From positions 1 through 58,161 of IMG/VR virus record IMGVR_UViG_3300044825_001220: a DNA stretch of 58,161 nt, one strand, 5' to 3'. Both the position numbers and the translations under genes were made by a program. The notes under the pieces are model-generated. The model saw nothing but the letters and a program-made list of their open reading frames with translations, had not been told where the DNA came from and searched no databases. Origin of the DNA: a virus (Duplodnaviria > Caudoviricetes). This document shows positions 12,981 through 58,160 of this stretch, one piece after another; positions within the stretch are counted from its first letter, which is position 1, and each line of letters begins with the position of its first letter.

Positions 12981-12987
12981 TGTAGCC

Positions 12988-13027: not shown

Positions 13028-13037
13028 TAGGTTTTCA

Positions 13038-13949: not shown

Positions 13950-13967
13950 GATTAATTACTCCTTCGA

Positions 13968-14660: not shown

Positions 14661-14675
14661 TTAAGACTCCTAAAT

Positions 14676-16165: not shown

Positions 16166-16175
16166 TTGTCACTCC

Positions 16176-16580
16176 TTATGCAGCGCGGGTAATCCCACGC
16201 GGGTCTTCCACAACGGCCTCAACCGATTCATCATTGATGATGCGGAACTCTCGGCCATGAATCTTCAAGCGGGTGCCTGAATTGGGTCGGACGATGACAA
16301 AGTCACCTTGTTTGCACGACGGTCCACTAGGGAACCGGGTCTTGTCCTGATAGCAGTCAGGGCCGAGCTTGACCACGAACAACACGGGGGTCAGAACCTC
16401 CTCGTAGTGCATGGTTTGTGCGGACTTAAGAATTTCGCTGTCTTCATATTCCGCCATCGCCTCAGGAACGACACACAGCATGTGATACGTCTTTGGGTCA
16501 GGAAGCTGTTTGGCTTTCTCTTCTGCGCTCTTGTTCAAAATGCCGGAGAGGTCTACGGCAGCCACATCAAATTCACTCAT
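16176..16580 (-). CDS. groES: GroES-like co-chaperonin
   Basis: VVKLGPDCY...CKQGDFVIV...GTRLKIHGREFRIINDESVEAVV Cpn10 pattern. Confidence 0.8.
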   Translation of the reverse strand: MSEFDVAAVDLSGILNKSAEEKAKQLPDPKTYHMLCVVPEAMAEYEDSEILKSAQTMHYEEVLTPVLFVVKLGPDCYQDKTRFPSGPSCKQGDFVIVRPNSGTRLKIHGREFRIINDESVEAVVEDPRGITRAA

Positions 16581-16767
16581 TCGTCATCCTTTGCACGAGG
16601 TCCTCAATCACATGATCTGCGTAGTTAAGACCCCGGATCACTCCACAGACTTTTTTGTACTCGTCGTACGTGTCGGCACGGCTTGCAGCAAGAAAGGCAA
16701 CTTGCTCCTGCCGGTACTTTTCAATCTCTTTCTGCACGAGTGCGAGCACTCGGATTTCATCCTGCAT
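16573..16767 (-). CDS. Small helical protein downstream of portal
   Basis: YDEYKKVCGVIRGL; coupled to neighbours. Confidence 0.7.
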   Translation of the reverse strand: MQDEIRVLALVQKEIEKYRQEQVAFLAASRADTYDEYKKVCGVIRGLNYADHVIEDLVQRMTNE

Positions 16768-19232: not shown

Positions 19233-19241
19233 GATGGCTCC

Positions 19242-20783: not shown

Positions 20784-21525
20784 CGGGGGTCTCCGGCGGC
20801 TGCTGAGCGGGCGGGGCGGGCTCAACCTCTTCAACCATCTCAAGCGGGGGCTTTGTCCCCAACTCTGCATCGATGTCAATGTCCACAGGCGACAAATCCG
20901 CACCGTGAGCCAACAACATTTTGCGAACTTTGTCCTTGATGGCGTTGTCGATGTCTGCAACTGAGTTGTAGGTGACCGTGATCTCGGTCTTCTCCGTAAA
21001 CAGCCCCACGTCGCTAATCTTGCCGAGCATCTCCGCTGCTTTAATTTCTATGCGCGGATCACCGCACATCGACAAGTCAAGCAGCTTGTTGGTCACAACC
21101 ATGCGAAGCTCCGCTGCGTCTGCAACGGTGTGACTGTTGTACTCGTTGAGCATCGTGCGGATGCGCTCCGCTACGTTGCCTTGGTACAGCGATGGGGGAT
21201 TTACGGACTCTGCGCGTGGGGTTGGCGAAGTCTCGGCGGTCGCATACTTCCTAGGTCTGCCGCCCTTGTTCTTGGCGGGCTTGGCTGGCTGCTCTGGCGC
21301 AATCGCATCCTCGAACTGCTGCTTCGCCCGCTCTGAAAAAGCACGGAACACCTCGTCCGCCATCTCAGTGTCTGCTTGCGAGACCTCGCCGGGCGGGCGT
21401 AACTCGGAAAGGAGCGCCGCTGTGTCCGCCGCGATCTGCATGTTTTCGCGCAGGGTCGTTGCGGCCTCGGGCGCGTCGCCCGCTGGATAAGGCACAGTCC
21501 TATCAGGTCGAATCTGTAGTGTCAT
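20773..21525 (-). CDS. Putative terminase small subunit
   Basis: Directly upstream of terL; GGRPRK; IKAAEMLGKISDVGLF. Confidence 0.6.
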   Translation of the reverse strand: MTLQIRPDRTVPYPAGDAPEAATTLRENMQIAADTAALLSELRPPGEVSQADTEMADEVFRAFSERAKQQFEDAIAPEQPAKPAKNKGGRPRKYATAETSPTPRAESVNPPSLYQGNVAERIRTMLNEYNSHTVADAAELRMVVTNKLLDLSMCGDPRIEIKAAEMLGKISDVGLFTEKTEITVTYNSVADIDNAIKDKVRKMLLAHGADLSPVDIDIDAELGTKPPLEMVEEVEPAPPAQQPPETPDAV

Positions 21526-45069: not shown

Positions 45070-45097
45070 GCCCCGCCGTAACTGGCGGGGCTTTTTT
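45070..45097 (+). terminator. Terminator at convergence of the two arms
   Basis: GCCCCGCCG taac TGGCGGGGC + 6 T. Confidence 0.8.
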
Positions 45098-48000
45098 ACT
45101 CCTCGTCCTCTTCGCTCAGTTTGCTGACGTAGTCATCATTGAGCAGGTAGGCCATCCGTTTGTTCAGGATCAGTCCGTGCTGAGCCTGCGTGGATTTTTG
45201 CAACCGCTGTTTTACCGACCGATTTAGTGAGGTCGCGGCAATTGCCATAGCGGGATGCTGCTCGTTAAACTTGAGCATCTTTTCAAGGGCTTTCTGCACG
45301 CCCTCGGCATCGCTGCTCATGAATGACGCCCCATACAGATTAAGCAGGTTCTGGCGTTTCTTCAGGATTTCCTGCTCCTGCCCCTTCTTCTGGATGTTGT
45401 AGTACTGAATCTCCGCAATCTCAGCCGGGCGGAATCCCAGCGACTGCATGAACAGATCAAACGGCCCGACGTTTTCAACGAGCGGGTCTCCACGCAGACT
45501 CTTCACGCCTTCTTCGGCATACCGTGTTGCGATCAACGGCTGCTTGATGAATGCAGGGGCCACCGCCTCCAGGGCTCGGTCAGCGTGACCTTGGTTGTAC
45601 AGGTCAACAGCGCGGGCGACGTTGACCGTGAGTCCCACCGTGGGACCCAGCAGATCAACCAAGAATTGCCGCCATGCGTCTTCTTCGTCCAGATTCTTCC
45701 GGCCATCACGGAACCACATGTTGTCCAGAGACACCCGGCTGTGCAGATCGACACCTGCTGCATTACCTGCGCCACGGGTGAGGAACATCCCCAGGTTGGT
45801 CCCGAAGGTGTTGACCGCCCAGTTCATGTACTCCAACTCGAAGTCGAACGGTTCGTCCTCATCGTCCCCGAATCCGTTGACCACAGCGTTGATGATTGAC
45901 GCGGCGGTTGAGAAGCCCCACAAGCCCGTCGTGCCCGCCAGGATACCGGTCATGCCCATGGTGCCAACGAAGCGAGCAGTTGCTTCCCGCTTCATAAGAG
46001 CGTGTCTTTTTAAGAATTGCTCTCGTTCCGCGTCGCTCATAAGTGCCATTTGCGTCTCTGACGGCTTTTTGACCATGTTCACAAAGTTGCGCGTCAAGAA
46101 GAACGTCATCTGCTGCGGAAACTGCTTGAACTGCAAGATGACACGAGCAGCGGGATGCTGCATGTAGCGTGGCTTGTTCGCAGTGGAGTAGTCAAACATG
46201 GACCGGGTGGTCACATCTTTGGCCTCCGCGATGGCTTCGGAGAACGCCCGCTGCTGGTCAGGGTAGTTGGCGCGTTTCTCCATCGCAGCCCGGAATGCAG
46301 ACATGGCGATCACTTCGCGGTTGAACCGTTCTGCGTTGTGGAACAGCGCCGCCAGCGCAGTCATAACCCGATTGCGTATGCCGTCGTAGCTCTCTGTTGG
46401 TGACGACGCCAAACCAGACTGATCGTAAGTAGCAGTGATGTCGATCAAACCATCAGCAACGAACCGGTTATACGCAGCCTGATCTAAGCGGCTAAGTCCA
46501 GCGCGATCAAGCGACGGGAACAGAACCATGTTGTCGCGTATCCGGGGGCCACGTTCCAACCCGAAGCCTGTGCTCAAAATCTGTGCAGCCACGTCTTTCA
46601 TCTGCCCAAGGCTCTTGAGCGTAGCCGTGGTGTACGACATGTTGGGATTCAACCGTATTTGCTGACCAATCAAGGTCGGCAGACCAATGGTTAATCCACC
46701 CAAGATGTTGGTTGCCGCAGAAGCAAACGAGGTCAGGTACCAGATGAAGCCGATGTTCGACAGGGTCGAGACAACGATGCCTGTGTCCTCTGGGTTGAGG
46801 ATGTACGAGAGACGCTTGTCAAGCTCGCGCACGTAATCCGTAAGCTCGCTGTTCTCGCGCATCACGTCCATATTGGCGCGATCAGACTCGTCTTTGCGGT
46901 CTTTCAACTGTATGCGTGCAGCGGTCATCTGCGAGAACATCTCGGGGGAGTACTCGAAACGCGCCTGCTGGTACGCCATGTGGAAAGACGAGTACGAGAA
47001 GTTACGCAGGGCATCTTGAGAAAAGCCCTCGACGTTGGACCGATGCACGAACCGATTGCGGAAACTTGTCTCGGGTAGGTTGGTCAGCCACGCCTGATAC
47101 AACTCGTCCTTGAGGCTCTGCTTCAAAGCGTCCTCTTGAGCCGGTCCAGCCACGCGAATCTGATCGACGGCATTGAAGGCCGACTTGAGGAAGCTGGACT
47201 CGCGGGCGTGGAGGTCCATGCCCTTCATGTAGTCATCGCCGTACTGAATGGTTGCTTCCAGATGCGGGACTTCCGACAGCCGCTGCTTGATGTGCGCCTC
47301 CCGCTCGTTGGCAGTCTCGAACATGTAGTACTCGCGGCTGTTTCCCTTGCCAATCTGATACCAGAAACGCCCATACCGCATGAGTGGGAAGTACGGCCCT
47401 GCGCCGATGCCCTTCTCAAACTCGTTGCGAATCTCATTGATAGTAGTTTCTGAGACCCCCAACTGGCGCATCTGAACCACACGCTGACGCAGAGTGCGTT
47501 TGTACTCGGAGAACCGGCGTGCGTAGAAGTCGCGCACATCGCGGTAAATCTGCTTGGCCTCCGGGTTCAACTCCCGCCACATGGTCATCAGATCGGGATC
47601 AGCGTTACGCTGTTCGGCTGTGGCCTTGTCCGGGTCGATACGCTGTATGGTGGCACGATGCATCACAGCCCCGACCTTACGAGACATCTCGGGGTCCATG
47701 GCTTGCAGGCGCTGCCAGCGTTTGGTGATGTCGCCGGACTCGGTCAAGATGCGGTTCTTACGAGCCGTGTAGTCTTCGACGACGCGGATGAAGTTGTCGA
47801 GTTGTGGGATGCGTCCGTCCACAAGGTCTGCAATCTGGCGCAGCGTCAATGCACCCAGCGCCACTGGCCGCAGGTTGGACTTGAGCCCCCGGTAGAACGT
47901 GCCCCAGTCATTCTTGACTTCGCTCCACGGGCGTGGCGTCATGTAGTTACGCAGCGACTGGGTGGAGTTCGGACGCCCCACGGGGATGCGTTTCTTACTT

Positions 48001-51000
48001 TGGGCCAAACCCTTGGCCTGAGACTTGACCTGCAAGTCTGTCATCGGCCCGGTCAGATCGTCTTTACCGGCGGTGCCGCCGAGCATCATCGCGTCTGCGG
48101 CAAAGATGGCCTCGTTGAGGATGTTGCTTTCGCGCCCCTGCTTGATGTTAAACAGCTTACGGATTCCATCCGTGAACCAGTTCATCATCGAGAAGGGTGA
48201 TGCCTTGTACCGAATCGCCCGCAGCAGGGCTTGAAACTCTGGGTTGGTCAGGGCTTCGGACACAAACTCATGCAGGTCTGTGAGTCCGTAGATGTTGCTG
48301 CCGCCTACTTCATTCTCAGTCAGAACGCCTTTGGCGTGCTTGTACAACTCGACGAGCTTGTCGTATCCCTGACGACGAACGCCAGACAGCGTATCGGGGC
48401 GGTCAAGCAGTCCAAGCGTGGCTGCATGCAGAACCTCGTGCAAGAACGTGTGGTTCGTCATGCCAACTCCGCTACGCATGAAAATCGTATCGGACGTGGG
48501 GTCGTACTTACCAATCCAGCCGTACTGTTGGCTGATAAAGTCTGTAGCCGCACCAACCAACTGAATCTGTGCATCAGTCAGAGGTGAAGCAGTGCCACGG
48601 CTGGCGTTGTTGAGTTCAGCCAGCGCCTGCTCCAGATCACGGAGTTTGCTGGAGTCCAGCAGGCGCAGCAGTTCAGTGTGACGTTCTTGCGGCAGCGTTG
48701 TGGTCACCAACTCACGCAGCGAACCCAAGAAGTTGTCAAACGTCTTGCGAACCTCGGGGGTATCGTTCAGCGGAGCGATGGTGTCCCGGGAGATCAGTTC
48801 AGTCTTGGCCGTGATGCCCGCTTCAAGCAAACGCTCTGCCAGCATGGCGTAGTACGGGTTGGACTTACTGTCCGCAAGCAGTTGCAGAGCCTGCTGCGTG
48901 TTACCCGCTTCAAGCGCACGACGAATCGCGGGGTGAATCTCGTACAGACCCTGCACACGAGGCAGATTTTTACGAGAGACCTTGGGTTCAGTTACCTCTT
49001 CACGCTCTTCCTCGGGCGTAAATTCACCCGCCCGATCACGAGACTTTTTCGGGGCGCGGGGCATGGGCACTTTCGCCGCTGCACGCTGCTTTTCTTTATA
49101 CGCGTCGAGGCGGGCGTTGTACTCACTGACCGCCTGTTCAAACTCCGCGTTTGCTTGTGCGGTTTCTTTGTGGCCTTGAATCAACTCGTCCAGAAGTGCC
49201 ACAGTGCCAGGGTCAAGGTTCTGCTCGACCCACGTACGGAAGTCCTGCGCGTATTTGCCGCCCTCACCGTAGAACGTGGAGTTGGCACCGTAGTGTTTGG
49301 GGTCCAACTCATACATCGCCAAGTCAAACGCCAAGTCTTGCAGCGCCTGCCCGAACGTCTCACGCGTGCGGTTGTTCAGGTAGTTGGCGGCAGCGCGGGC
49401 GGACGCGCTCAGTTTCTCGCCAGCGGTGACCATCTGCCGCAGCATACGGATGGCCGTGCGCAGGCGTGAGTCGGACAGGGTGTACTGCTTGATCCGCGAC
49501 GCCTGCCCGGGACGGCGTGGCCTGCCCTCTTTGGCGGTGGCGGGCACTTGCGTAACCCGGACATCCTGCTCAATCTCTTCTTTGTAAGGCACCGGAGACT
49601 TGGTAACCCGCGAAGGAGTAGACCGCTGCGGTGTGGGGATGCCTTCCCCGGTGGCAGGCAGTTGTTTGAAGTACTCTTGGACTTGCCCGCTGAACTCTTC
49701 CATCCCACGACGGGTCGTGAGATTGGGCAAGCCCGCACGCTGGAGCAGGAACGCTTGCCGATCAGGAGAGGCACCACGCAACTGCTGCACAAGTTGCTGA
49801 AACGCTTCCATGCCACCGACGCGGTTGGCGAGGTAACGGAGCGCAGCCAGCCCGCCCTCGGTAGTCGTCTCCCCCGGGGCGGCGATGTCGTACTCAAGCA
49901 GCGCGGCTTGAGCGGCGTTCTTCGGTGACTGATACTTCTCACGCTCGACGGGAGACTCAGTGGCGGGCTCGATAACGTCAAAGAACCCCTGAATCGCCTG
50001 ACCTTCTTCCGTTTGAAGCAGGCGTTCAGTGTCAACGGCGGGGGCAACAACCCGCTCCTTCTGCGACACAGCGGGGCGAGTCTCTTCTCGAACTGGCTCT
50101 TCAACGATGCCCTCATCAGAGCCGAACTCAGGTTCTGCGGCTGCGCGTTCTTCTTGTTGCACCTCCGCAGCGGCTTGCTTAAGTTCGCTAACCAACTGAG
50201 AGCGAGGGCTCGGAGTGGGAGGCAACGCGCCAAAGAGATCACCCTGCATCCCACGGGCCGGGCCTTTAGATTGCACAGCCGCAATCGCTTCTGCGGTGCG
50301 CTGCTCTTCCTGCTGCAAATAAAGCTCAGCAACCTTCTTGGGGTTGTCAAACCCTTCTTCGGGAGTCAAGCCAACCTGCGGTGCGTTCGTGCGGCCCCAG
50401 ATGCCGTTGTTTATGTTGGCCGCTACCCGGTCCCGGAAGCGTTGCAGTTGCTCTTGCAAGTACTGCACGGACTTCTGCGGGTCACCGCGTCCGATGGCAA
50501 GAGCGCGGTTAGTCAGGTCGAGTACGTCTTTGCGGCCACCAAACAAGTCGCCGCGCATCCCGCGTGCTTGACCGGTTGGCACTTGACTGGCTGCAATCTG
50601 CAAGTCCGTCAGAACCCGAGTCCCATCGAACATCGGATTCTTCAGTTGATCAACCAAGGCTTTGCTGCCGATCAGATCGGCGTTGGCATCAACGATAGAG
50701 GCCAAGTCCCTGTTCACCAACAACAGCCTGCGCCCATCGGCTTGCGTGGGGCTGGTAATACTCAGCAGTTCGTTGGCTTCTTGGCGCAGGTCGTTGTACT
50801 GCCGTGAGAAGTCTTCGAGGCGAGCTACTGCACCGGACTGAGTTCCTTCTCCAGCGGCGGCTGGTGGTGCGGCAAAAACATCTTTGACTGTTTTTTCGAT
50901 GCGCGCAAGTTCTGCTTGGTTTGCCTCGTCCAAAATTTCCAACTCTTGAAACTCAGCCCGCAGCTTGGAAAAGTGACGATCAATAGGCAGGCCTCGCTTG

Positions 51001-52559
51001 GCGTCCATGATCGCCTCGCCAAGAAACCTATTAAGATGTGACGTGCCAAACCCGTTTTGCATAACGAAGTCGGCAGCATCATTGGGCAATACGATTGAGC
51101 CATATCCTCCAGCGGGTACTACAGAAAACTTTCCATCCCGGCTGGTCCATAGGCCATTGCGCTTCTTGGCCCCCTCATACGGAGGTTTGTCTGGATTAAT
51201 AAGAGGATCAAAATCCTCCAAATCTTCTTGTGCTCGTATCAGCGCAGTAGCCTCTACTGCACCGGACTGAGTTCCTTCTCTAGCAGGAGGCTGTCCAACA
51301 TCCGCTGGAGTAGAAACCATTCCATCTGGTTGAGTTGTAACAGGTCGTCCGGCGGGGGGTCGAGCTCCGGGGACGCCAGCCACTCCAGCGCCCGCTCCAC
51401 CTGTGAGTTCGAAAGGTTCTGCAACATCTTCTTCCTCCGAGAACGTCCCGCCCAGCAACGACCTCTCATCCAGTTTGATTGGCGGCTGCGGTTTTTCGGC
51501 GGCACGACCAAACACAACGTCGGATGCGCCAGTGATGACGCCACCACCAATACCGCCCTTTAGACCGGCATTGACGAAGCGAACAAAATTTTCTGCGGTA
51601 AAGAAGTTAGGGTTATTTGCGACGAAGGCTTCTGCCGCTGCGCTGGACATTTCCTGCACAGCCTCAGTGCCGCCCTCAGTGAAGAACCCCTTGCCAAGAC
51701 CAACCGCACCGCGCTTATACCACGCGCCAATGATCTCTTGAGGAGGGATGCCCGCTGTGCCAACCTTGCGCAGAAGTTGCACCGGCAGAATCGCGTCCAG
51801 CACGGAATTGAAACCACCGGCCACAAGGGCAGCGCCGATATCTTCCTTGCCGGTTTCTTGGAGAATATTCTGGTACACCTCAGGGATGTTCTGCGCCGCC
51901 GAACCGGTCAACGCACCCACTGCTTGGTACTTGAGCGCCGTACGCTGCGCGGCCTTTACACCCTCGTCCAGCGCCGCTTTACGAATGCCTTGGAGTGTGG
52001 CGTCGGTCAAAGCGCCAGAGGCCGTAGCCCGTGCTACTTCCCTCGCTGCCACGCCCTCTGCGGCTTGCATGGCAGCAGTCATGGCCGGGCGGGCCAACAG
52101 CGCGGCCGCGCCACCCGTAAACAAGCTGGGGAGTAGAGAGGGGATGGCCTCGCCAACCGCCTCGGTGATGTACGTCACTGCATCGCCAACACCTTTGATG
52201 TCGGTGAACGATGGCACTGCGGCAGGGAACCGCTCCTGAATCTCTTTCTGTGAGGCAGCCGCTTCCGCAAGTTGACGGTTGGCGTACTCATCTGCGCCCA
52301 CCGCCCGACCAAGCATGGCGGGGAGAACGTCCCCAAACAGCACGCCGGTCTGCATGGCGCTGCGTTTAATCGACGGAATAAACCCCGTCTGAGGCGCAGG
52401 GCCGGGCGCAGGGCCAAGAGTGGGTTCAAAAAGCGGCGCTTCAGGAGCCGAACCCAGAAACTGATTAAGAAAAAACGCCGCGTCTCGGTCTGTCAGCCCT
52501 GGCGGGCCGTCAAACTTATACATACGCCCATCAGGCCCTTTTGCACGGTACTGCGCCAT
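45096..52559 (-). CDS. Giant internal virion/ejection protein (polyvalent type) with zincin HExxH domain
   Basis: About 2487 aa, last gene of structural arm; hydrophobic N-terminal helices; FLHEVLHAA...HEFVSEALTNPEFQ. Confidence 0.8.
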   Translation of the reverse strand: MAQYRAKGPDGRMYKFDGPPGLTDRDAAFFLNQFLGSAPEAPLFEPTLGPAPGPAPQTGFIPSIKRSAMQTGVLFGDVLPAMLGRAVGADEYANRQLAEAAASQKEIQERFPAAVPSFTDIKGVGDAVTYITEAVGEAIPSLLPSLFTGGAAALLARPAMTAAMQAAEGVAAREVARATASGALTDATLQGIRKAALDEGVKAAQRTALKYQAVGALTGSAAQNIPEVYQNILQETGKEDIGAALVAGGFNSVLDAILPVQLLRKVGTAGIPPQEIIGAWYKRGAVGLGKGFFTEGGTEAVQEMSSAAAEAFVANNPNFFTAENFVRFVNAGLKGGIGGGVITGASDVVFGRAAEKPQPPIKLDERSLLGGTFSEEEDVAEPFELTGGAGAGVAGVPGARPPAGRPVTTQPDGMVSTPADVGQPPAREGTQSGAVEATALIRAQEDLEDFDPLINPDKPPYEGAKKRNGLWTSRDGKFSVVPAGGYGSIVLPNDAADFVMQNGFGTSHLNRFLGEAIMDAKRGLPIDRHFSKLRAEFQELEILDEANQAELARIEKTVKDVFAAPPAAAGEGTQSGAVARLEDFSRQYNDLRQEANELLSITSPTQADGRRLLLVNRDLASIVDANADLIGSKALVDQLKNPMFDGTRVLTDLQIAASQVPTGQARGMRGDLFGGRKDVLDLTNRALAIGRGDPQKSVQYLQEQLQRFRDRVAANINNGIWGRTNAPQVGLTPEEGFDNPKKVAELYLQQEEQRTAEAIAAVQSKGPARGMQGDLFGALPPTPSPRSQLVSELKQAAAEVQQEERAAAEPEFGSDEGIVEEPVREETRPAVSQKERVVAPAVDTERLLQTEEGQAIQGFFDVIEPATESPVEREKYQSPKNAAQAALLEYDIAAPGETTTEGGLAALRYLANRVGGMEAFQQLVQQLRGASPDRQAFLLQRAGLPNLTTRRGMEEFSGQVQEYFKQLPATGEGIPTPQRSTPSRVTKSPVPYKEEIEQDVRVTQVPATAKEGRPRRPGQASRIKQYTLSDSRLRTAIRMLRQMVTAGEKLSASARAAANYLNNRTRETFGQALQDLAFDLAMYELDPKHYGANSTFYGEGGKYAQDFRTWVEQNLDPGTVALLDELIQGHKETAQANAEFEQAVSEYNARLDAYKEKQRAAAKVPMPRAPKKSRDRAGEFTPEEEREEVTEPKVSRKNLPRVQGLYEIHPAIRRALEAGNTQQALQLLADSKSNPYYAMLAERLLEAGITAKTELISRDTIAPLNDTPEVRKTFDNFLGSLRELVTTTLPQERHTELLRLLDSSKLRDLEQALAELNNASRGTASPLTDAQIQLVGAATDFISQQYGWIGKYDPTSDTIFMRSGVGMTNHTFLHEVLHAATLGLLDRPDTLSGVRRQGYDKLVELYKHAKGVLTENEVGGSNIYGLTDLHEFVSEALTNPEFQALLRAIRYKASPFSMMNWFTDGIRKLFNIKQGRESNILNEAIFAADAMMLGGTAGKDDLTGPMTDLQVKSQAKGLAQSKKRIPVGRPNSTQSLRNYMTPRPWSEVKNDWGTFYRGLKSNLRPVALGALTLRQIADLVDGRIPQLDNFIRVVEDYTARKNRILTESGDITKRWQRLQAMDPEMSRKVGAVMHRATIQRIDPDKATAEQRNADPDLMTMWRELNPEAKQIYRDVRDFYARRFSEYKRTLRQRVVQMRQLGVSETTINEIRNEFEKGIGAGPYFPLMRYGRFWYQIGKGNSREYYMFETANEREAHIKQRLSEVPHLEATIQYGDDYMKGMDLHARESSFLKSAFNAVDQIRVAGPAQEDALKQSLKDELYQAWLTNLPETSFRNRFVHRSNVEGFSQDALRNFSYSSFHMAYQQARFEYSPEMFSQMTAARIQLKDRKDESDRANMDVMRENSELTDYVRELDKRLSYILNPEDTGIVVSTLSNIGFIWYLTSFASAATNILGGLTIGLPTLIGQQIRLNPNMSYTTATLKSLGQMKDVAAQILSTGFGLERGPRIRDNMVLFPSLDRAGLSRLDQAAYNRFVADGLIDITATYDQSGLASSPTESYDGIRNRVMTALAALFHNAERFNREVIAMSAFRAAMEKRANYPDQQRAFSEAIAEAKDVTTRSMFDYSTANKPRYMQHPAARVILQFKQFPQQMTFFLTRNFVNMVKKPSETQMALMSDAEREQFLKRHALMKREATARFVGTMGMTGILAGTTGLWGFSTAASIINAVVNGFGDDEDEPFDFELEYMNWAVNTFGTNLGMFLTRGAGNAAGVDLHSRVSLDNMWFRDGRKNLDEEDAWRQFLVDLLGPTVGLTVNVARAVDLYNQGHADRALEAVAPAFIKQPLIATRYAEEGVKSLRGDPLVENVGPFDLFMQSLGFRPAEIAEIQYYNIQKKGQEQEILKKRQNLLNLYGASFMSSDAEGVQKALEKMLKFNEQHPAMAIAATSLNRSVKQRLQKSTQAQHGLILNKRMAYLLNDDYVSKLSEEDEE
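50825..51280. repeat. 27-bp exact direct repeat 429 bp apart
   Basis: CTACTGCACCGGACTGAGTTCCTTCTC at 50825-50851 and 51254-51280. Confidence 0.9.
51254..51427 (-). CDS. Candidate nested out-of-frame gene (57 aa)
   Basis: GGAGG-6 nt-ATG; MLQNLSNSQVERALEWLASPELDPPPDDLLQLNQMEWFLLQRMLDSLLLEKELSPVQ. Confidence 0.5.
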   Translation of the reverse strand: MLQNLSNSQVERALEWLASPELDPPPDDLLQLNQMEWFLLQRMLDSLLLEKELSPVQ

Positions 52560-52586
52560 GGTCAATCCTTCTCAGGGTGGCCCAGA

Positions 52587-54770
52587 TTATTCGTCATCAT
52601 CCGAGTCGTCGGGCGTTACGTTGCTGATGAATCCTTTGTTAAGTTTACCCAATTCGCGCTCTGCGTACAGTTCGTAGAGTTGCGCGGACGACGTAATTCC
52701 GCGATCCTTGAACATTTTCTGCATGGCCGGGTTCAATGCGGCGGATTCAAAGTCAGCCTTGGCCAGCCGCTGTGCCCGGTCAAGAGCCCGCTCTCGTGCC
52801 GCTCCGTAGTTCTTCATGATCGCGGCGCTGCTCCTAGCCTGTGCAGCGGGGCCTGCGGCTGCAATACGCTGCCGCATAAGTCCTTCTTTGACTTGACTAG
52901 AACGCCGCTGCTCATCAAGCTGCTCACGCTGTAGAGCAAGCTGCGCTTGCGACTGCTCAAGTGCGCGAACCTGACCGGCCAAAGCCGCCGCCGTTTGCAA
53001 GTCGCCCTTACGCTGCGCAATCTCAAACTGCTTCAAGCTCATCCGCAGCTTCATGTCATTCTGGTCCATCTCCCGAGCCAGCTTGGCGCTTCCAGCCATG
53101 GATGCCGAGATGGTGGGTGCCGCTGCGGACGCACTGCCGAGGAACGTAGCACCGGGTTTAGATGCGGCAGCGGCCATTTGAAAACCAAAGTCTGCAAGTG
53201 CTGCACCAAACGCCCGTTCTTTTACCTCTTTAGAACCACCCATACTCTTTTCAGCTTCCGCAAGAAGGCTTTTCATCTCCTCCTTACTGGACTGATTAAG
53301 CTCGTCGCGCAACTCTTTAAACTTCTCCATGAAAGAGTCGCGGTTTACACCCACTTTGTCCGCCATCTGCTCCACCGCTTGCGTGATGGATGCATTAGTG
53401 GCACCGGCGGGTGCGGGTGCGCGGGCGCGAGCTCTGGCTTGAGCCGGTTTGGCGTCCGACCGGGATTTTTTACTGACCCGGCTTGCTGACGCTGCTTCCT
53501 CTTCTTCCAGCGGCTGGACGAAAGGGCGTGTAGGAGGTCGTGGTGGTGGTTCAGCAAGTCTAGAAGCAGCGCCCCCGTAGTATTCCGCAATGGATTTACC
53601 ACCACGGGCTATTCGCCCGGGAGCGTCTAGTAGCCGTTCAAGTAATGAACTTTCTCTTATCGTGGGGGCAACAAAATCAGACCCGCCAAACTCTGGGCTC
53701 ACACCGCCGTTTGCAAACGCCACGATGCCACCGTTGGCAGCGGTAAACACGCGCTCTTGATCTTCTGCCGGGAGCGAATCAAACGCGCCACCGAGACCTG
53801 CGCGGAGCGACGCCCGCTCGGCAAGCTCGTCGTCAATCATCATCAATTGCTGGTTATCGCCCCTGTTGAGCGCAGCCATACGCGATTGCTGCAATTGAGC
53901 ATCGCTGAGTCTGTCGATGATGTCATCAACACTGTAATCGCTGGTCACACCCCCACCGGCATACTCATCGACCTGACCACCTTCAGCAAACCCCCTGCCA
54001 AAACCTGTCATCGCACCCAAGCCAACACCAAGACCGGCCAACTGGCCAAGGACGTTTGGAGGCGGCTGATACAACGTCTGAACACTACCCATCGGGGTGC
54101 CGCGCAGGATGTTGGACATGAACTCCAACTGCTGGTACGGGTACTTCTGCTGGTTGAGGAAGTCTTGATAACCCTGGCTCAGGCGTTGCTGCTCCAACCC
54201 CTGACGCATCCCGCCGTACTGCATTTGTAGACCCTGCGCCCGACGAGCCTCTTCAGAGCCTTGCTCAAACGCACGCTGAGAACCCATAGCTTGGATGTCG
54301 CCCATCTGGCGCATGAGGTTGCGGTTGTCTTCTGCCCGTTGGATGCCTTCACGATACCCGCCAAACGCCCCCGCACCCGTAGCCCTTGCCTGCTGCTGCG
54401 CACCAAGAATACCGGCGCTGCGCATGGCTTCGCGCTTTTGAACGTCCACCACGTTCTGCATGTAGGGCGACATGTAGCCCTGAACCTGTTTGCCAAACTC
54501 CTCTGGGCTTGAAGCAGTGCGCATGGCCTGCTCTTGCATGGGATCAAACCCGGCAATTCGGTCTTTTGAATATACCTGATACGGGTTTTGGCTGATGTCT
54601 GTCAGCGCAGCAGCTTTGCCAAGCGTCTCTTTGGCGTACGGCTTGGCCCACTCTGGGAGGTCTGCAATCTGAGTTTGAGAGGCAGGGGCCGAAGAACCGC
54701 CACCACCACCGCCGCCAAGATGCAGAGTAAACCAGTCCGGGTTGAACAACCACTTCCAAATCTTAAACAT
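52587..54770 (-). CDS. Internal virion / DNA ejection protein
   Basis: Leader + poly-Gly; YMSPYMQNVV, AGAFGG, QKYPYQQL; repeated FAxGG motifs. Confidence 0.75.
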   Translation of the reverse strand: MFKIWKWLFNPDWFTLHLGGGGGGGSSAPASQTQIADLPEWAKPYAKETLGKAAALTDISQNPYQVYSKDRIAGFDPMQEQAMRTASSPEEFGKQVQGYMSPYMQNVVDVQKREAMRSAGILGAQQQARATGAGAFGGYREGIQRAEDNRNLMRQMGDIQAMGSQRAFEQGSEEARRAQGLQMQYGGMRQGLEQQRLSQGYQDFLNQQKYPYQQLEFMSNILRGTPMGSVQTLYQPPPNVLGQLAGLGVGLGAMTGFGRGFAEGGQVDEYAGGGVTSDYSVDDIIDRLSDAQLQQSRMAALNRGDNQQLMMIDDELAERASLRAGLGGAFDSLPAEDQERVFTAANGGIVAFANGGVSPEFGGSDFVAPTIRESSLLERLLDAPGRIARGGKSIAEYYGGAASRLAEPPPRPPTRPFVQPLEEEEAASASRVSKKSRSDAKPAQARARARAPAPAGATNASITQAVEQMADKVGVNRDSFMEKFKELRDELNQSSKEEMKSLLAEAEKSMGGSKEVKERAFGAALADFGFQMAAAASKPGATFLGSASAAAPTISASMAGSAKLAREMDQNDMKLRMSLKQFEIAQRKGDLQTAAALAGQVRALEQSQAQLALQREQLDEQRRSSQVKEGLMRQRIAAAGPAAQARSSAAIMKNYGAARERALDRAQRLAKADFESAALNPAMQKMFKDRGITSSAQLYELYAERELGKLNKGFISNVTPDDSDDDE

Positions 54771-55212
54771 TTAGATGCTCCTTGCGGTAGTCGTCAAACC
54801 GCTCATAAAACACAGCTTTCCAGACCTCTGGAAGAATCTCTTTGGCTTTTTCTGGACCAACACAAACATGTACGGCATAGGCCAAGATGTTGCCAGCAGC
54901 GTACCGCAGACTATGCGCAATCTCAATCCCGTGCGGGTCTTTGTTTCGCTCAAAAGTGTTCGCCGTCTCAAACGAAGAAACTACAACCAACCACATCGGC
55001 AAGATGTCGTCTTGGATGCTGCGGTAAAACGGGTTGGCAGGAAGATAAACAAGTGCGGTTAGGAAGGCTTGGTTGATGGTGTCATCGGATACATCCTTGT
55101 CCCTGTCCACCATGTCATCCCAAGCGTGTGCCAAAAACACAAACGCCCGAAACATGTTCAGGGCGTCTTGGTTCCCTCCGAACCACTCAAGTTTGCCTTC
55201 GTTGATGTTCAT
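54763..55212 (-). CDS. Small all-alpha protein with DDxxD motif (isoprenoid synthase-like)
   Basis: LAHAWDDMVDRD; overlaps both neighbours. Confidence 0.6.
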   Translation of the reverse strand: MNINEGKLEWFGGNQDALNMFRAFVFLAHAWDDMVDRDKDVSDDTINQAFLTALVYLPANPFYRSIQDDILPMWLVVVSSFETANTFERNKDPHGIEIAHSLRYAAGNILAYAVHVCVGPEKAKEILPEVWKAVFYERFDDYRKEHLNV

Positions 55213-56750
55213 GCTGGCAGGTATTTGTCGGCGCGGGTGTTTTTGGCGACTCGGCCTTTACCAGTCGTTTGGCCACGAGCTGCTTGTACACGGTTCATCA
55301 TGGCGTACAGCTTACGCGCACCGGCCTCAGTCGAGCCGTTACCCAGTTCAGAGACGATGCGGGCCGGGATTACAAACTCACCGTCTGCAAGACGAGCAGG
55401 GCGCTTGTTGCCAATTGTGGCCGGGATAGAGTCAGACACCCCATCACCAGGGCCGCGCAGCAGCCTGCCGCCGTCAGAGTAGTCGCCAAGGTGAGAGTAC
55501 CCGCCGCCAGCAAGAGCAGTGATGCCACCTTTGTAGAAACCAATTCCGTCAGTTCCAGTATCTGCGCTCATACCACTGGCGTTTGAAGCGGCATTTGCTC
55601 CAGAAACATCAGCGGCTTGAGCAGCGCCCATGGAATCCATGGCACTGGCATTTATAGCGCCAACCTCACCGTGTCCAATTGAGGCATCTGACAAGGCATT
55701 GACACTCTGCGCCGTATCAAACGCGCCTATGGCTTCGTCTCCGACTCCCGAGGCCAGAGCGGCGGCGGCAAGGCCAGACAAACCAGGGCCCGCAGCGGCC
55801 AAATCACCACCCGCGCCGACAGAATCCATTGTGCGATCAGGATTACCAGCTTTTGTTGGTTTCGGCGGCTCAACCTTTTTGTATGACTGCGTCAGCGGGT
55901 CATAGGTGTATTTGTTGTCATCGGTACTGCCGCCCGTACCGCGATCAAGAAGGCCACCCTCGGCGGCCAGACGGGTATATTGAGGCTGGAAATTCATGCG
56001 TTCCCCGCGATAGTCCGCAGGGTAAAGAGACTCAGGGTTCTTGACCCGGCCAGGGTTAAACGCAAAAAGCGCTCTCTGTGAGTCTGATTGAGGAGGTGCT
56101 GACTCCGACTCTCCTGCCATGAGCATAGGAGCGGCAGCACCTGCGGCATATTTGAGCAGTCCTTTGCCGCCGCCAATACTTTTCATGAAGGCTTCTCTGC
56201 CACCAGTTTCTGTTAAACCAGTCAGCCCTTTGGCCGCCGTTGAAAATGGACTCTCTAATGCTGTTTTTGTGGCTTGGGCAGCGACTTCGTTCATGGCGGC
56301 CTGTGATGCGCCTTGACCAAGACCAGCAACGGCACCTTGCTGCGCTGCCGCTGTACCCGCACCAAACAAACCGCCCCCAAGTCCAGCACCGCCATATGCG
56401 CCAAGACCAGCCATCAGCCCCTTGCCGATGTCGCCTGTCCGAGCCGCTTGGAGCGCACCCACACCAAGGCCGATGGTGGCTGGCATACCCATCCCAAACA
56501 ATCCTGCACCTGCGGCAGCGCCAAGCCCCCCGGTGGCAAACATCAAGCCACCGCCAATAATCGCCGGGAGAAGACTGTCCAGAAACCCAGCCTCAGGAAG
56601 TCCTGTCTCAGGGTTAATACTTAGAGTGCCACCATGGGCTTTGGCAAGTTCTTGGAGACTGCTCAACTCGCCCAGCGACATGTGGACAAGCTGAGTGTCT
56701 GGGCCTCGGCCCTTAGAGGCAAGGTGTTTGGCGGCGGCTTCAAGGCTCAT
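55209..56750 (-). CDS. Internal virion protein
   Basis: N-terminal GRGPDTQLVH...INPETGLPE; Gly/Ala hydrophobic helices; C-terminal GPGDGVSDSIPA...DGEFV. Confidence 0.75.
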   Translation of the reverse strand: MSLEAAAKHLASKGRGPDTQLVHMSLGELSSLQELAKAHGGTLSINPETGLPEAGFLDSLLPAIIGGGLMFATGGLGAAAGAGLFGMGMPATIGLGVGALQAARTGDIGKGLMAGLGAYGGAGLGGGLFGAGTAAAQQGAVAGLGQGASQAAMNEVAAQATKTALESPFSTAAKGLTGLTETGGREAFMKSIGGGKGLLKYAAGAAAPMLMAGESESAPPQSDSQRALFAFNPGRVKNPESLYPADYRGERMNFQPQYTRLAAEGGLLDRGTGGSTDDNKYTYDPLTQSYKKVEPPKPTKAGNPDRTMDSVGAGGDLAAAGPGLSGLAAAALASGVGDEAIGAFDTAQSVNALSDASIGHGEVGAINASAMDSMGAAQAADVSGANAASNASGMSADTGTDGIGFYKGGITALAGGGYSHLGDYSDGGRLLRGPGDGVSDSIPATIGNKRPARLADGEFVIPARIVSELGNGSTEAGARKLYAMMNRVQAARGQTTGKGRVAKNTRADKYLPA

Positions 56751-56784: not shown

Positions 56785-57657
56785 TCATGGAGGGAGCGCA
56801 GATACAAATCCAAGTGTGGCTACCACAGATGCCGTGGCCGGTCTGGTTGGCCCTGTTGACGGGCCGTAACATTCAAGGGTTACCTTCTGATCAGTGGTGG
56901 ACCACCAGATTTCTACGTACTGCCCAGCATTTAACTGCAAAAAATAGTTCCAGCCAATGATGGCGTGACCGTCAATACCGCCATGAGTGCCGACAACAGA
57001 AATAAACCCCGTAGAACCAACCACATCAACCCCATTTACACGCAGCCAAACTGAAGCGTCATGTATGGCCGAATCTGAGTTGTTGAACTGCCCCGACCAC
57101 TGCAAGTTGTAAATGCCAGCCTTTACGGCAGTTATTCTGGTCTCGTTTACGATACTTACGTTGTTTGCGTAGTCCGTAGTGTTGATGTACATGGGCACAG
57201 CAGTGGCCGCAGGAGGTGACTGTATTTTGGTTACAGCCACGCCAGTGGAGTGCGCTACGTTTGTTGACCCCCTTGCGCCACGGGTGCAGCCCGTGAATGT
57301 TGTAGGCGTTTTGCCAGTGTAGGTGATGACTTCAGATGTGATGCGAAGCTCACCAGCAGTTGGAAATCCTGCGGTGCTGACGACGGTGATTGTGGTGACC
57401 GAGTTGTTGATGCCGCCGTTAAGCGTGGTGTACGCCGTATCTTGAAACGCACCGTATGGAAGGCGAATGCCAGAGCCGTCAATTGCACCAGACCCTGTAT
57501 TTAACTGCGCCAAAATGCCATCGAGTCGGTTGAAGTACAGGCGCAGAACATCCGCGAATTGATCGTGATACCGCTTCTCGTAGTCGTTTGGCGCGTCTGG
57601 CAACCTGGGTGCGGCAACCCGATTTAATTCGTAGGTGGAGGTAACGATGAACGTCAT
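56785..57657 (-). CDS. Tail tip/needle-position structural protein
   Basis: APRLP...LRLYFNRLD; C-terminal GIYNLQWSGQ...YVEIWW beta sandwich. Confidence 0.65.
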   Translation of the reverse strand: MTFIVTSTYELNRVAAPRLPDAPNDYEKRYHDQFADVLRLYFNRLDGILAQLNTGSGAIDGSGIRLPYGAFQDTAYTTLNGGINNSVTTITVVSTAGFPTAGELRITSEVITYTGKTPTTFTGCTRGARGSTNVAHSTGVAVTKIQSPPAATAVPMYINTTDYANNVSIVNETRITAVKAGIYNLQWSGQFNNSDSAIHDASVWLRVNGVDVVGSTGFISVVGTHGGIDGHAIIGWNYFLQLNAGQYVEIWWSTTDQKVTLECYGPSTGPTRPATASVVATLGFVSALPP

Positions 57658-58160
57658 TACGTGTTGCCCCTGCGGCCATCGGGTTTGATGTCAATACGCG
57701 GAGCGCCAAGCTGCCACTGCACCCCAAGATTGGCAGACTCGACCTTGAACTCCATCTGCCTACCACGAACCCGGATCAGCACCTGCCCGGTAAATTGTTC
57801 AACCGGAACCGATGCGCTGCGCACCACAGGAGCGTTGTTTGTGCCGCCGACAGACTCAGGGTTGTTAAAGCCCGAGCCAGAGTTTTGCAGCGGCTTGAGC
57901 GTCATGGTCACCTGCGGGTTTGCAGCAGACGAACCCCTGAACGTGATGTCAGGCAACAACCTCCAGATGAACCCAAAAGCATGGCCATCACCAATATCAA
58001 ACTGCGACGAGGTGATGTAGGCGTTGATCGGGGCCGGGGTGCCAGAGACGTTGTCGTCAACACCAAACTCATGGAAGACCAAATTGTTGGAGTACGTGGC
58101 AGCAATCGGATAGTTGTTCAGGCTGGAGTCATTCCAAGCCGTGCGGCCCATCGAGCCATA
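57657..58160 (-). CDS. C-terminal part of tail stabilisation / tubular protein B-like gene (5' truncated)
   Basis: Frame open to the window edge; RTAW, FDIGDG, LPD, RVRGRQ, WQLG...DGRR. Confidence 0.7.
   Translation of the reverse strand, partial: YGSMGRTAWNDSSLNNYPIAATYSNNLVFHEFGVDDNVSGTPAPINAYITSSQFDIGDGHAFGFIWRLLPDITFRGSSAANPQVTMTLKPLQNSGSGFNNPESVGGTNNAPVVRSASVPVEQFTGQVLIRVRGRQMEFKVESANLGVQWQLGAPRIDIKPDGRRGNT

What the first reader, a model, noticed from the sequence alone, without database searches (positions are those of the whole stretch)
54700..55212. DDxxD (ComQ/isoprenoid synthase-like) mini-enzyme coupled to an ejection protein with a Trp-rich leader
Seen: the 149-aa helical protein carries AHAWDDMVDRD, matching the first aspartate-rich motif of class I prenyl synthases. 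It overlaps the start of the next gene, whose product begins MFKIWKWLFNPDWFTLHL-GGGGGGG (three Trp, then poly-Gly). Established: in P22-like and T7-like podoviruses the gene just before the first ejection protein (gp14, gp13) is GNAT-like; P22 gp7 loses an N-terminal leader ahead of a Gly-rich segment; Bacillus ComQ uses this fold to prenylate a Trp in ComX. Inference: this phage may replace acylation with prenylation to lipid-anchor its DNA ejection conduit, which would be an undescribed virion modification system. Caveat: the protein is about half the size of a full synthase and only one DDxxD is visible.
Basis: partly seen in the sequence, partly recalled or inferred. Interest (0 to 1): 0.8.

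Follow-up and report, generated by a model that had tools for sequence, protein, structure and literature searches.

The report
Mini prenyl-synthase-like phage protein
A small, highly conserved phage protein encoded just before a DNA-ejection protein looks like a cut-down isoprenoid (prenyl) synthase with an invariant metal-binding aspartate motif, which hints at unexplored lipid chemistry in phage infection, although the proposed tryptophan prenylation is not supported.

Summary
Gene 54763-55212 (-) encodes a 149-aa all-helical protein with W31-DDMVDRD-38. It overlaps by 8 nt the start of a 727-aa ejection-type protein beginning MFKIWKWLFNPDWFTLHL-GGGGGGG.

The small protein belongs to a large unannotated family: 678 clusters at 50% identity, no Pfam or NCBIfam match, PHROG 21390 'unknown'. 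D32 and D36 are invariant in 307 of 307 members, and D33, D38, N60 and R103 are nearly so.

Two AlphaFold models (pLDDT 96.5 and 93.7) have no significant Foldseek match. An exhaustive structural search put class I isoprenoid-synthase-fold proteins in 32 of 50 and 48 of 50 top rows, with modest Z (at most 8.9). In relatives the domain is fused to, or adjacent to, methyltransferases whose best solved relatives include prenyl-diphosphate C-methyltransferases.

So "prenyl-synthase-like" is partly supported. ComQ-like Trp prenylation is not: 51 of 78 leaders lack Trp, and leaders diverge while the enzyme stays conserved. P22 gp14 is unrelated (hhalign 0.5%).

A second, non-phage context exists: the gene sits beside giant RTX adhesins in Lap-type secretion loci.

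Most likely this is a Mg2+/diphosphate-binding mini enzyme tied to envelope-crossing proteins. Its substrate is unknown.

The parts
54763..55212 (-). Gene for the 149-aa all-helical 'DD' protein (PHROG 21390; no Pfam or NCBIfam family)
   Evidence: ORF. phrog_21390 E 4.4e-21. No Pfam match and no NCBIfam match. AF2 pLDDT 96.5. 678 representative clusters at E<=1e-3.
55099..55122 (-). Codons W31-D38 (WDDMVDRD), the invariant Asp-rich motif at the C-terminal end of the first long helix (residues 15-36)
   Evidence: Sequence. D32 and D36 in 307/307, D33 in 300/307, D38 in 302/307, W31 in 296/307. Helix limits.
54763..54770 (-). ATGTTTAA overlap: stop of the DD gene and start of the 727-aa gene (translational coupling)
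   Evidence: In relatives the downstream ORF starts mostly at -8, -17, -14 or -4 nt relative to the stop.
54717..54770 (-). 18-codon N-terminal leader MFKIWKWLFNPDWFTLHL of the 727-aa protein (three Trp)
   Evidence: Leader types differ between clades, and Trp is absent from 51 of 78 leaders.
54696..54716 (-). Seven-Gly run following the leader
   Evidence: GGG occurs within the first 70 aa in 78 of 116 downstream proteins. P22 gp7 has a 20-aa leader followed by KGGKGG.
52587..54770 (-). 727-aa ejection-type protein: leader, poly-Gly, S/T/P/Q linker, then a conserved 'LPEWAKPY' domain
   Evidence: phrog_4287 'DNA ejection protein' E 1.5e-4. The same family lies at +1 in 98 of 151 distinct loci.
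55209..56750 (-). 513-aa Gly/Ala-rich protein with a conserved C-terminus (...LYAMMNRVQAARG...KYLPA), coupled by ATGA to the DD gene
   Evidence: The same family lies at -1 in 74 of 151 distinct loci. No Pfam, PHROG or NCBIfam match.
45096..52565 (-). 2489-aa giant virion-type protein with a DarB-like C-terminal region, downstream of the 727-aa gene
   Evidence: phrog_10089 'DarB-like antirestriction' E 1.2e-90, residues 1705-2471.

Best explanation
The 149-aa protein is a founding member of an unannotated, widespread family. It is a compact seven-helix version of the class I isoprenoid-synthase (trans-prenyltransferase) fold. It keeps one Asp-rich motif (WDDxxDxD) plus conserved N60, E88 and R103.

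Inferred mechanism: the Asp cluster holds Mg2+ and, together with N60 and R103, binds a diphosphate, most plausibly of a host isoprenoid diphosphate. The protein then ionises it or presents it.

The gene is translationally coupled between two large internal-virion / ejection-type proteins in phages. In some bacteria it sits directly after a giant type-1-secreted RTX adhesin. I therefore infer that the product of this chemistry, a lipid group or lipid-derived cofactor, serves the neighbouring envelope-crossing protein.

Shown here: the gene, the motif's invariance, the synteny, the fold resemblance and the methyltransferase link. Inferred: metal and diphosphate binding, an isoprenoid substrate, and any transfer to protein. 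The leader plus poly-Gly of the 727-aa protein is best read as a P22-gp7-type cleavable N-terminal propeptide. It is not a conserved Trp acceptor.
For: 1. Conservation. D32 and D36 are present in 307/307 unique members, R103 in 305/307, D38 in 302/307, D33 in 300/307, N60 in 291/307 and E88 in 281/307.

3. Protein-language-model neighbours. For two members the nearest named clusters include polyprenyl_synt, DUF2600, HEPPP_synt_1 and HexPS-like. Scores are 0.76-0.78, so this is a lead only.

4. Methyltransferase link. A class I SAM methyltransferase is fused to the domain in either order in P0202, P0214, P0215 and P0271. It is a separate gene directly upstream in L065, L068, L080 and L110. Its profile's best solved relatives are BezA (5.9e-12), sterol 24-C-MT (1.1e-11), C6-FPP MT (6.3e-9) and GPP 2-C-MT (8.5e-9). 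BezA is a GPP C6-methyltransferase, and GPP-MT genes pair with a terpene synthase gene in 2-MIB operons (passages of PMC10881772).

5. Synteny. 116 of 122 non-redundant loci have a >=150-aa ORF starting within -60 to +100 nt of the stop. The 727-aa family is at +1 in 98 of 151 distinct loci, and the 513-aa family at -1 in 74 of 151.

6. Relative conservation. The small protein is far more conserved than its neighbour. Pairs at 70-80% DD identity have a median of 40% identity in the neighbour's core and 28% in the leader. This fits an enzyme with a conserved small-molecule substrate.

7. Second context. In Halomonadaceae/Alcaligenaceae loci (six or seven of the 26 genome loci) the gene follows a giant adhesin. 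In L246 the order is ABC transporter, HlyD, a 1591-aa VWA+RTX protein, the DD gene, then LapD and LapG. The motif residues are intact there.
Against: - No sequence-level link to any isoprenoid enzyme. Pfam gives nothing for the protein or for 93 members at E<=1. The PF00348 model finds nothing in the six frames of the window. The family profile against PDB sequences gives nothing better than E 0.4.
- Foldseek finds no PDB match at E<=0.001 (best E 2.7). The prenyltransferase 9b3t_B reaches only TM 0.38.
- The protein is about half the size of a synthase. It has a single Asp-rich motif and no second DDxxD or NSE/DTE motif.
- The best structural matches include chains of heteromeric heptaprenyl synthases that, from recall, are non-catalytic small subunits.
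- The methyltransferase similarity is not specific. Phosphoethanolamine N-MT, glucose O-MT and MitM score nearly as well. NCBIfam's best match is an uncharacterised 'DVU_1556 family' MT below its cut-off.
- The methyltransferase link is seen in only 4 adjacent loci and 4 fusions.
- No conserved acceptor residue was found in the neighbour's N-terminus.
- No biochemical data exist.
Confidence: 0.45

Rival explanations
1. Non-catalytic assembly or ejection factor. The helical protein escorts the neighbouring large proteins into the procapsid, or keeps them translocation-competent as a chaperone for proteins that must pass a narrow channel. Alternatively it is itself a minor virion component. In this reading the acidic cluster binds a cation or a basic partner segment.
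For: The gene is tightly coupled translationally between two large virion-type proteins. It occupies the same position as P22 gene 14, which the record annotates as 'virion stability factor' / head morphogenesis and which lies directly before gene 7. Its second context, beside a type-1-secreted giant adhesin, also involves a protein that must be exported through a narrow channel. The best structural matches include chains that, from recall, are non-catalytic subunits.
Against: Invariance of four acidic residues plus N60 and R103 over 307 members is more typical of a catalytic or ligand site. The protein is much more conserved than the supposed client, and the leader is swapped without matching change. 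Fusion to a methyltransferase in both orders fits an enzyme pathway better than a chaperone.
Confidence: 0.25
2. Host-directed small-subunit mimic or lipid-carrier binder. The protein pairs with, or competes at, a host trans-prenyl diphosphate synthase, or it sequesters a polyprenyl (di)phosphate. Either action would alter envelope or quinone lipid supply during infection.
For: The top structural matches are chains of heteromeric heptaprenyl synthases and a GGPPS-recruiting protein (5h9d_D, 9kp1_A, 5xn6_C). The language-model neighbours include the about 146-aa 'component A of hexaprenyl diphosphate synthase'. No large subunit is encoded in the window, so any partner would have to come from the host.
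Against: The late-operon position and strict coupling to virion proteins would be unusual for a host-takeover factor. From recall, the small subunits lack Asp-rich motifs, whereas here the motif is invariant. The adhesin-locus context is left unexplained.
Confidence: 0.1
3. A ComQ-like prenyltransferase prenylates a Trp in the leader of the ejection protein, replacing GNAT-type acylation.
For: DDxxD motif and isoprenoid-synthase-like fold. The window's leader has three Trp.
Against: Trp is absent from 51 of 78 leaders. It occurs once in 16, twice in 7 and three times in 4. Non-homologous leader types occur at 80-85% identity of the small protein. Some neighbours have no leader at all (MCGGGGG..., MSGGGGG..., MGW...). 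There is no PF00348 match. P22 gp14 is unrelated to this family, and I could not show it to be a GNAT.
Confidence: 0.04
4. The fold resemblance is only a generic helical arrangement. The protein would then be another kind of Mg2+-dependent enzyme, for example a nucleotide or sugar-nucleotide pyrophosphatase or transferase, or a metal-binding module unrelated to isoprenoids.
Against: The hit lists are too homogeneous for a generic bundle: 48 of 50 and 32 of 50 rows are one fold, including all of the top 18 and the top 29 rows respectively. They cover 134-152 of about 150 residues, and the result is reproduced with a member only 25% identical. No MazG, HD or dimeric-dUTPase entries appear in either list.
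Confidence: 0.15

Closest known systems
Trans-prenyl diphosphate synthases and related prenyltransferases of the class I isoprenoid-synthase fold (Pfam polyprenyl_synt; e.g. hexaprenyl/heptaprenyl/GGPP synthases, MoeN5; ComQ by recall)
   Different: 149 aa instead of about 260-350. One Asp-rich motif instead of two. No detectable sequence homology. No significant Foldseek match. Whether the motif occupies the position of the first Asp-rich motif was not testable here, because no residue-level superposition is available.
Small subunits of heteromeric hexaprenyl/heptaprenyl diphosphate synthases (Pfam HEPPP_synt_1, HexPS-like). The chain identities of 5h9d_D, 9kp1_A and 3aqb_A as small subunits are recalled; the tool gives only titles and chain lengths.
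   Different: From recall, those subunits lack an Asp-rich motif and work with a catalytic large subunit encoded nearby. Here the motif is invariant and no large subunit is encoded in the window. There is no Pfam match.
P22 gene 14 protein (Pfam DUF2824; 'virion stability factor') before gene 7 (injection protein with a 20-aa leader cleaved by host OpdA)
   Same: Same genomic position and size (151 aa), directly before a leader-plus-Gly-rich ejection protein.
   Different: No homology (hhalign probability 0.5%). The two belong to different families (DUF2824 / phrog_651 versus phrog_21390).
GPP methyltransferase plus 2-methylisoborneol synthase gene pairs (methyltransferase next to a class I terpene synthase)
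   Same: A SAM methyltransferase of the same broad subgroup is fused or adjacent to a DDxxD isoprenoid-synthase-fold protein. The pairing precedent comes from passages of PMC10881772.
   Different: The link is seen in a minority of loci and not in this window (tblastn). The specificity of the phage methyltransferase is unknown. The setting is a phage structural operon, not a biosynthetic cluster.

Membership tests
Class I isoprenoid synthase / trans-prenyltransferase (Pfam PF00348, includes ComQ by recall) | Sequence match to the family profile | tested here: not met
   No Pfam hit for the protein or for any of 93 members at E<=1. PF00348 finds nothing in the window's six frames, while it finds all 14 control genomes. 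The profile against PDB sequences gives no prenyl synthase at E<=10.
Class I isoprenoid synthase / trans-prenyltransferase | Alpha-helical isoprenoid-synthase core fold | tested here: inconclusive
Class I isoprenoid synthase / trans-prenyltransferase | First Asp-rich motif DDxxD, conserved | tested here: met
   D32 in 307/307, D33 in 300/307, D36 in 307/307. Spatial equivalence to the canonical motif was not tested.
Class I isoprenoid synthase / trans-prenyltransferase | Second metal-binding motif (second DDxxD, or NSE/DTE) and full size of about 260-350 aa | tested here: not met
   The protein has 149 aa and a single DDxxD at residue 32. No second conserved Asp-rich or N..S..E pattern was found. 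The other conserved polar residues are N60, N85, E88, R103, E137, Y142 and E145.
Class I isoprenoid synthase / trans-prenyltransferase | Mg2+-dependent turnover of an allylic diphosphate | not testable with these tools
   Needs biochemistry.
ComQ/ComX-type Trp prenylation system | Conserved Trp acceptor in the partner peptide, co-varying with the enzyme | tested here: not met
   51 of 78 leaders have no Trp. Leader identity is a median 28% at 70-80% enzyme identity.
Small subunit of heteromeric hexa/heptaprenyl diphosphate synthase (PF07307 / PF22538) | Family profile match and a catalytic large subunit encoded nearby | tested here: not met
   No Pfam match. No PF00348 gene in the window. Only structural and language-model resemblance exists.
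P22 gp14 family (DUF2824) | Homology to gp14 | tested here: not met
   hhalign of A1 against gp14: probability 0.5%, E 0.12. An HMM of A1 finds nothing in P22 positions 1-20000.
PHROG 21390 (unknown function) | Profile match | tested here: met
   E 4.4e-21, residues 7-133 against profile positions 13-138 of 153. The fusion proteins P0214 and P0223 also match.

The most novel reading that the evidence does not exclude
This family is a minimal, half-size protein prenyltransferase (or other isoprenoid-diphosphate-dependent lipid transferase). It would lipidate the N-terminal region of envelope-penetrating proteins: phage ejection proteins after leader removal, and giant type-1-secreted adhesins in Halomonadaceae. 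In some lineages it would use a methylated prenyl donor made by the fused methyltransferase. That would be a previously unknown protein lipidation system in phages and Gram-negative bacteria, and the smallest known catalytic version of the class I isoprenoid-synthase fold.
Probability: 0.15. Interest if true: 0.9.

Novelty: new variant of a known kind. Interest (0 to 1): 0.62.

Why it matters
How short-tailed phages get their ejection proteins into and across the Gram-negative envelope is poorly understood, and no virion protein lipidation by prenyl chemistry is described. Searches for phage + prenyltransferase + ejection, GNAT + ejection proteins + phage, and phage-encoded + terpene synthase found nothing relevant.

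This family is abundant in metagenomes: 678 clusters at 50% identity. It was found in only one isolate of the GenBank phage collection with three family queries and in none of the three other regions scanned with the family HMM. It has no Pfam or NCBIfam model.

If it binds or turns over isoprenoid diphosphates, it would define a minimal catalytic core of the isoprenoid-synthase fold. It would also link host lipid-carrier metabolism to phage DNA delivery and, through the Lap-locus members, to adhesin biology. Even if it proves non-catalytic, it is a conserved, testable component of the ejection-protein module.

Tried and rejected
**Homologue and structure searches that found nothing**
- tblastn of three family members against 50,697 phage records found only Achromobacter phage CF418P1. 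No paper mentions that phage.
- The first 150 aa of the 727-aa protein gave no tblastn match in phage records.
- Foldseek against the PDB gave nothing at E<=0.001. Against BFVD it returned only four uncharacterised family members.
- phmmer and profile searches against PDB sequences gave nothing meaningful.

**Fused and tandem forms**
- Searches for longer fused forms found none with the single protein. With alignment A1 they found only P0271.
- The tandem-duplicated P0141 (315 aa) looked like a way to test a 'two halves make one synthase' idea. No other tandem form was found among the 80 best loci kept from an IMG/VR scan. In alignment A4 all single-domain members aligned to its second half. 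I therefore did not fold it and treat it as a singleton.

**Homodimer prediction**
- Complex prediction with A1 in two copies scored 0.38 against a mark of 0.42, which is no verdict. I draw nothing from it.

**Neighbouring small genes**
- I suspected that the 136-165-aa ORFs directly upstream of the gene in L038, L046, L062, L071, L077 and L129 were GNAT or gp14-like. Pfam gave nothing. PHROG gave only 'unknown' families. BLASTP against P22 gp14 gave E 1.1. Their nature stays open.
- The 169-172-aa ORFs in L140 and L152 carry a PRSGTTW P-loop. They match Sulfotransfer_3 only below its cut-off (E 6e-4) and phrog_10855 'hydrolase'. This is a lead only.

**Other**
- HTVC027P, a portal relative, lacks the family in its late region.
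- Supplementary files of papers were not consulted.
- Script caveat: ORFs in scripts are the longest frames from the first ATG/GTG/TTG, so some N-termini may be over-extended. One search excluded L001, L082 and L159. One search excluded L001, L082, L159 and L160 and collapsed identical target proteins. One search used only the 54 loci among L002-L081 that have a recognisable P[EDSA][WYF][ALV][KRQ] motif.
Full report
**1. What is there**

The window is an IMG/VR virus record of 58,161 bases, estimated 92% complete. It is a podovirus-like phage. Its late operon runs on the minus strand: terminase (19242-20960), portal (16767-19232), major head protein (13038-13949) and many fibre-like genes. It continues from the window's other end with the following genes:
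- a 290-aa fibre-like protein
- a 513-aa Gly/Ala-rich protein (55209-56750)
- the 149-aa gene of the finding (54763-55212)
- a 727-aa protein (52587-54770)
- a 2489-aa giant protein with a DarB-like C-terminal part (45096-52565)

The three genes 513 aa, 149 aa and 727 aa are coupled by ATGA and ATGTTTAA overlaps. The 149-aa protein contains WDDMVDRD at residues 31-38. The 727-aa protein begins MFKIWKWLFNPDWFTLHL followed by seven Gly.

A DDxxD in one protein is not remarkable by itself. A script counted 7 in the window's 73 predicted proteins against 2.7 expected.

**2. The family**

The protein has no Pfam family, no NCBIfam family and no sequence relative in the PDB. It matches PHROG 21390, annotated 'unknown function' (E 4.4e-21).
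- A word-indexed search found 1164 close metagenomic relatives among 1171 candidates.
- An exhaustive HMMER search of 1.84 billion representatives found 678 clusters at E<=1e-3, of which 273 are at E<=1e-10.
- In GenBank phages only Achromobacter phage CF418P1 carries it, with the same synteny.

Across 307 unique full-length members aligned to the family HMM, conservation is as follows (first seen):

| Residue | Members with it (of 307) |
|---|---|
| D32 | 307 |
| D36 | 307 |
| R103 | 305 |
| D38 | 302 |
| D33 | 300 |
| W31 | 296 |
| N60 | 291 |
| E88 | 281 |

**3. Fold**

AlphaFold2 with a 93-sequence alignment gave a confident all-helical model: pLDDT 96.5, pTM 0.88, seven main helices.
- Foldseek found no PDB match at E<=0.001 (best E 2.7). 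In BFVD it found only four uncharacterised family members. The highest TM-scores outside the family were both trans-prenyltransferases (9b3t_B at 0.38; an Indivirus enzyme at 0.40), neither significant.

Protein-language-model neighbours point the same way, but weakly (scores 0.76-0.79, leads only). They are polyprenyl_synt, DUF2600, HEPPP_synt_1 and the about 146-aa 'component A of hexaprenyl diphosphate synthase', alongside an unrelated G6PD_N cluster.

At sequence level nothing links the family to these enzymes. There is only one Asp-rich motif, and the protein is half the usual size.

**4. Gene context in phages**

I fetched 80 close loci, 76 further loci with a distant query, and more via P0141. 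Scripts then gave these counts:
- Among 122 non-redundant loci, 116 have an ORF of at least 150 aa starting within -60 to +100 nt of the small gene's stop, usually overlapping it.
- Clustering the neighbours of 151 distinct family members put the 727-aa family at +1 in 98 loci, and two other families at +1 in 20 and 10 loci. The 513-aa family is at -1 in 74 loci.

The downstream proteins share a common architecture:
- a short, variable N-terminal leader (15-24 residues before the first GGG in 58 of 78 cases)
- a Gly- or Gly/Ser/Asp-rich run
- an S/T/P/Q-rich linker
- a conserved domain beginning with a P-(E/D)-(W/Y)-A-(K/R)-P-Y-like motif

The leaders fall into unrelated types: MFKLWKWLFNPDWF..., MNPIKFILSALRFAGVFGL..., MLIPNKFNGYSRDGRRLY... 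and MFKLSSLLGFLLGPRL.... Some proteins have none and start MCGGGGG, MSGGGGG, MGW... or MGC....

Trp is absent from 51 of 78 leaders. It occurs once in 16, twice in 7 and three times in only 4. Pairs of phages whose small proteins are 70-80% identical have a median of 28% identity in the first 18 residues of the neighbour and 40% in its conserved core. The small protein is therefore the most conserved element and does not track the leader. This argues against a ComQ/ComX-like, leader-specific Trp prenylation.

The architecture parallels P22 gene 7. The P22 record states that the N-terminal 20 residues of gp7 are cleaved by host OpdA, and gp7 reads MLYAFTLGRKLRGEEPSYPE-KGGKGG. I therefore read the window's leader as a probable cleavable propeptide. 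This is an inference.

**5. P22 gp14 and the 'GNAT replacement' idea**

P22 gene 14 (151 aa) occupies the same position before gene 7. It is Pfam DUF2824 and phrog_651 and shows no relation to this family (hhalign probability 0.5%). I could not confirm that gp14 is GNAT-like, and no paper combining GNAT, ejection proteins and phage was found.

In relatives, the slot just upstream of the DD gene sometimes holds extra genes:
- a 136-165-aa ORF of unknown family (at -1 in 6 of 151 loci)
- a P-loop protein weakly resembling sulfotransferases (L140, L152; also in L110)
- a SAM methyltransferase (see section 6)

Other transferase-like genes are thus added to the DD gene. They are not exchanged for it.

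**6. The methyltransferase link**

Four family members are fusions with a class I SAM methyltransferase. The methyltransferase is N-terminal in P0202, P0214 and P0271 and C-terminal in P0215. Homologues of that methyltransferase are separate genes immediately upstream of the DD gene in L065, L068, L080 and L110. The window itself has none.

A profile of these eight sequences finds the following best solved relatives:

| Solved relative | E-value |
|---|---|
| BezA | 5.9e-12 |
| a sterol 24-C-methyltransferase | 1.1e-11 |
| phosphoethanolamine N-methyltransferase | 4.7e-11 |
| a C6-FPP methyltransferase | 6.3e-9 |
| GPP 2-C-methyltransferases | 8.5e-9 and 2.5e-8 |
| cyclopropane-fatty-acid-synthase-like enzymes | weaker |

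Passages of PMC10881772 identify BezA as a GPP C6-methyltransferase. They also describe the GPP methyltransferase and 2-methylisoborneol synthase gene pair. The similarity is to a broad subgroup and does not fix the substrate, so I count it as circumstantial support for an isoprenoid or lipid substrate.

**7. A second, cellular context**

A scan of one genome per prokaryotic species found 26 loci. All but one small 'Halobacteriales' MAG contig are in Gram-negative lineages: Beta- and Gammaproteobacteria, Desulfovibrionaceae and Rhizobiales. Most look like prophages with the same neighbour architecture.

In six Halomonadaceae loci and one Alcaligenaceae locus the gene directly follows a giant protein. 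L241 (a betaproteobacterial MAG) has a similar-looking locus. In Billgrantia pellis (L246) Pfam shows this order:
1. ABC transporter
2. HlyD
3. LuxR-type regulator
4. a 1591-aa VWA plus RTX protein
5. the DD gene
6. a 110-aa unknown ORF
7. LapD (LapD_MoxY_N, GGDEF, EAL)
8. LapG-type protease (Peptidase_C93)

These members keep W31, D32, D33, D36, D38, N60, E88 and R103. What the two contexts share is a large protein that has to cross or lodge in the outer envelope.

**8. Reading**

The best-supported statement is that this is a minimal isoprenoid-synthase-fold protein with an invariant metal/diphosphate-type site, functionally tied to envelope-crossing proteins. That it uses an isoprenoid diphosphate, and that it modifies the neighbouring protein, are inferences. 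I put about 0.45 on the enzyme or ligand-binding reading as stated and about 0.15 on true protein lipidation.

The main rivals are:
- a non-catalytic assembly or ejection chaperone (0.25)
- a generic helical Mg2+ enzyme unrelated to isoprenoids (0.15)
- a mimic of prenyl-synthase small subunits aimed at the host (0.10)

A homodimer prediction gave no verdict and is not used.

**9. Novelty and limits**

No paper in the searchable library links phages, prenyltransferases and ejection, or describes phage-encoded terpene synthases of this kind. The ejection-protein review PMC8954989 (passages only) lists gp7/gp14-type proteins but nothing like this gene.

I classify the finding as a new variant of a known kind: a half-size, single-motif relative of the isoprenoid-synthase fold in a new biological setting.

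Limits:
- no residue-level superposition
- no HHpred-depth profile comparison
- no biochemistry
- simple ORF calling in scripts
- supplements of papers were not seen

Noticed in passing
window 45096-52565 (-): A 2489-aa giant protein follows the ejection-type gene. Its residues 1705-2471 match phrog_10089 'DarB-like antirestriction' (E 1.2e-90) and several giant-protein PHROGs. CF418P1 has a 2684-aa counterpart mis-annotated as 'putative portal'.
   Followed up: no
window 55209-56750 (-): The 513-aa protein is mostly Gly/Ala-rich low complexity, with a strongly conserved C-terminus (GEFVIPA...LYAMMNRVQAARG...KYLPA). It has no Pfam, PHROG or NCBIfam match, and its family precedes the DD gene in 74 of 151 loci. 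It may itself be an internal or ejection protein.
   Followed up: partly
L246 (Billgrantia pellis) 5-11591; also L245, L248, L249, L250, L259, L242: Family members sit inside Lap-type type-1 secretion adhesin loci, directly after a giant VWA/RTX protein and before LapD and LapG. A conserved 106-129-aa ORF of unknown family follows them.
   Followed up: partly
L140 5462-5971, L152 5463-5981, L110 4799-5314: A 169-172-aa protein with a PRSGTTW P-loop lies upstream of the DD gene. It has weak Sulfotransfer_3 similarity (E 6e-4, below cut-off) and matches phrog_10855 'hydrolase' (1.9e-44). In L110 the order is this gene, the methyltransferase, the DD gene, then the ejection-type protein.
   Followed up: partly
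L088, L094, L110, L095, L133, L137, L139, L149, L254, L260, L001: In a subset of relatives the downstream protein has a Cys at position 2-4 (MCGGGGG, MCCGGGGG, MGCMST, MCMGG) or a Cys right at the end of the leader before the Gly/Pro-rich linker (…IAFCGGG, …GICCLDLGG). Overall 16 of 116 have a Cys in the first 45 residues. The layout resembles a lipoprotein mature N-terminus without a classical signal peptide.
   Followed up: no
window 57657-58160 (-) and 620-9459 (-): The ORF at the window's right end is cut by the record end (5'-open). The late operon continues at the left end with a long series of fibre-like genes. This is consistent with a permuted, nearly complete genome (92% by CheckV).
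   Followed up: no
L160 (Pelagibacter phage HTVC027P) 21266-22213: This phage, a portal-level relative (44% identity) lacking the DD family, has an annotated glycosyltransferase in the corresponding region, ahead of its large structural proteins.
   Followed up: no
P0141 (315 aa): A single tandem duplication of the domain, with two WDD(L/I)IDKDK motifs. No other tandem form was found among the 80 best loci kept from an IMG/VR scan.
   Followed up: partly
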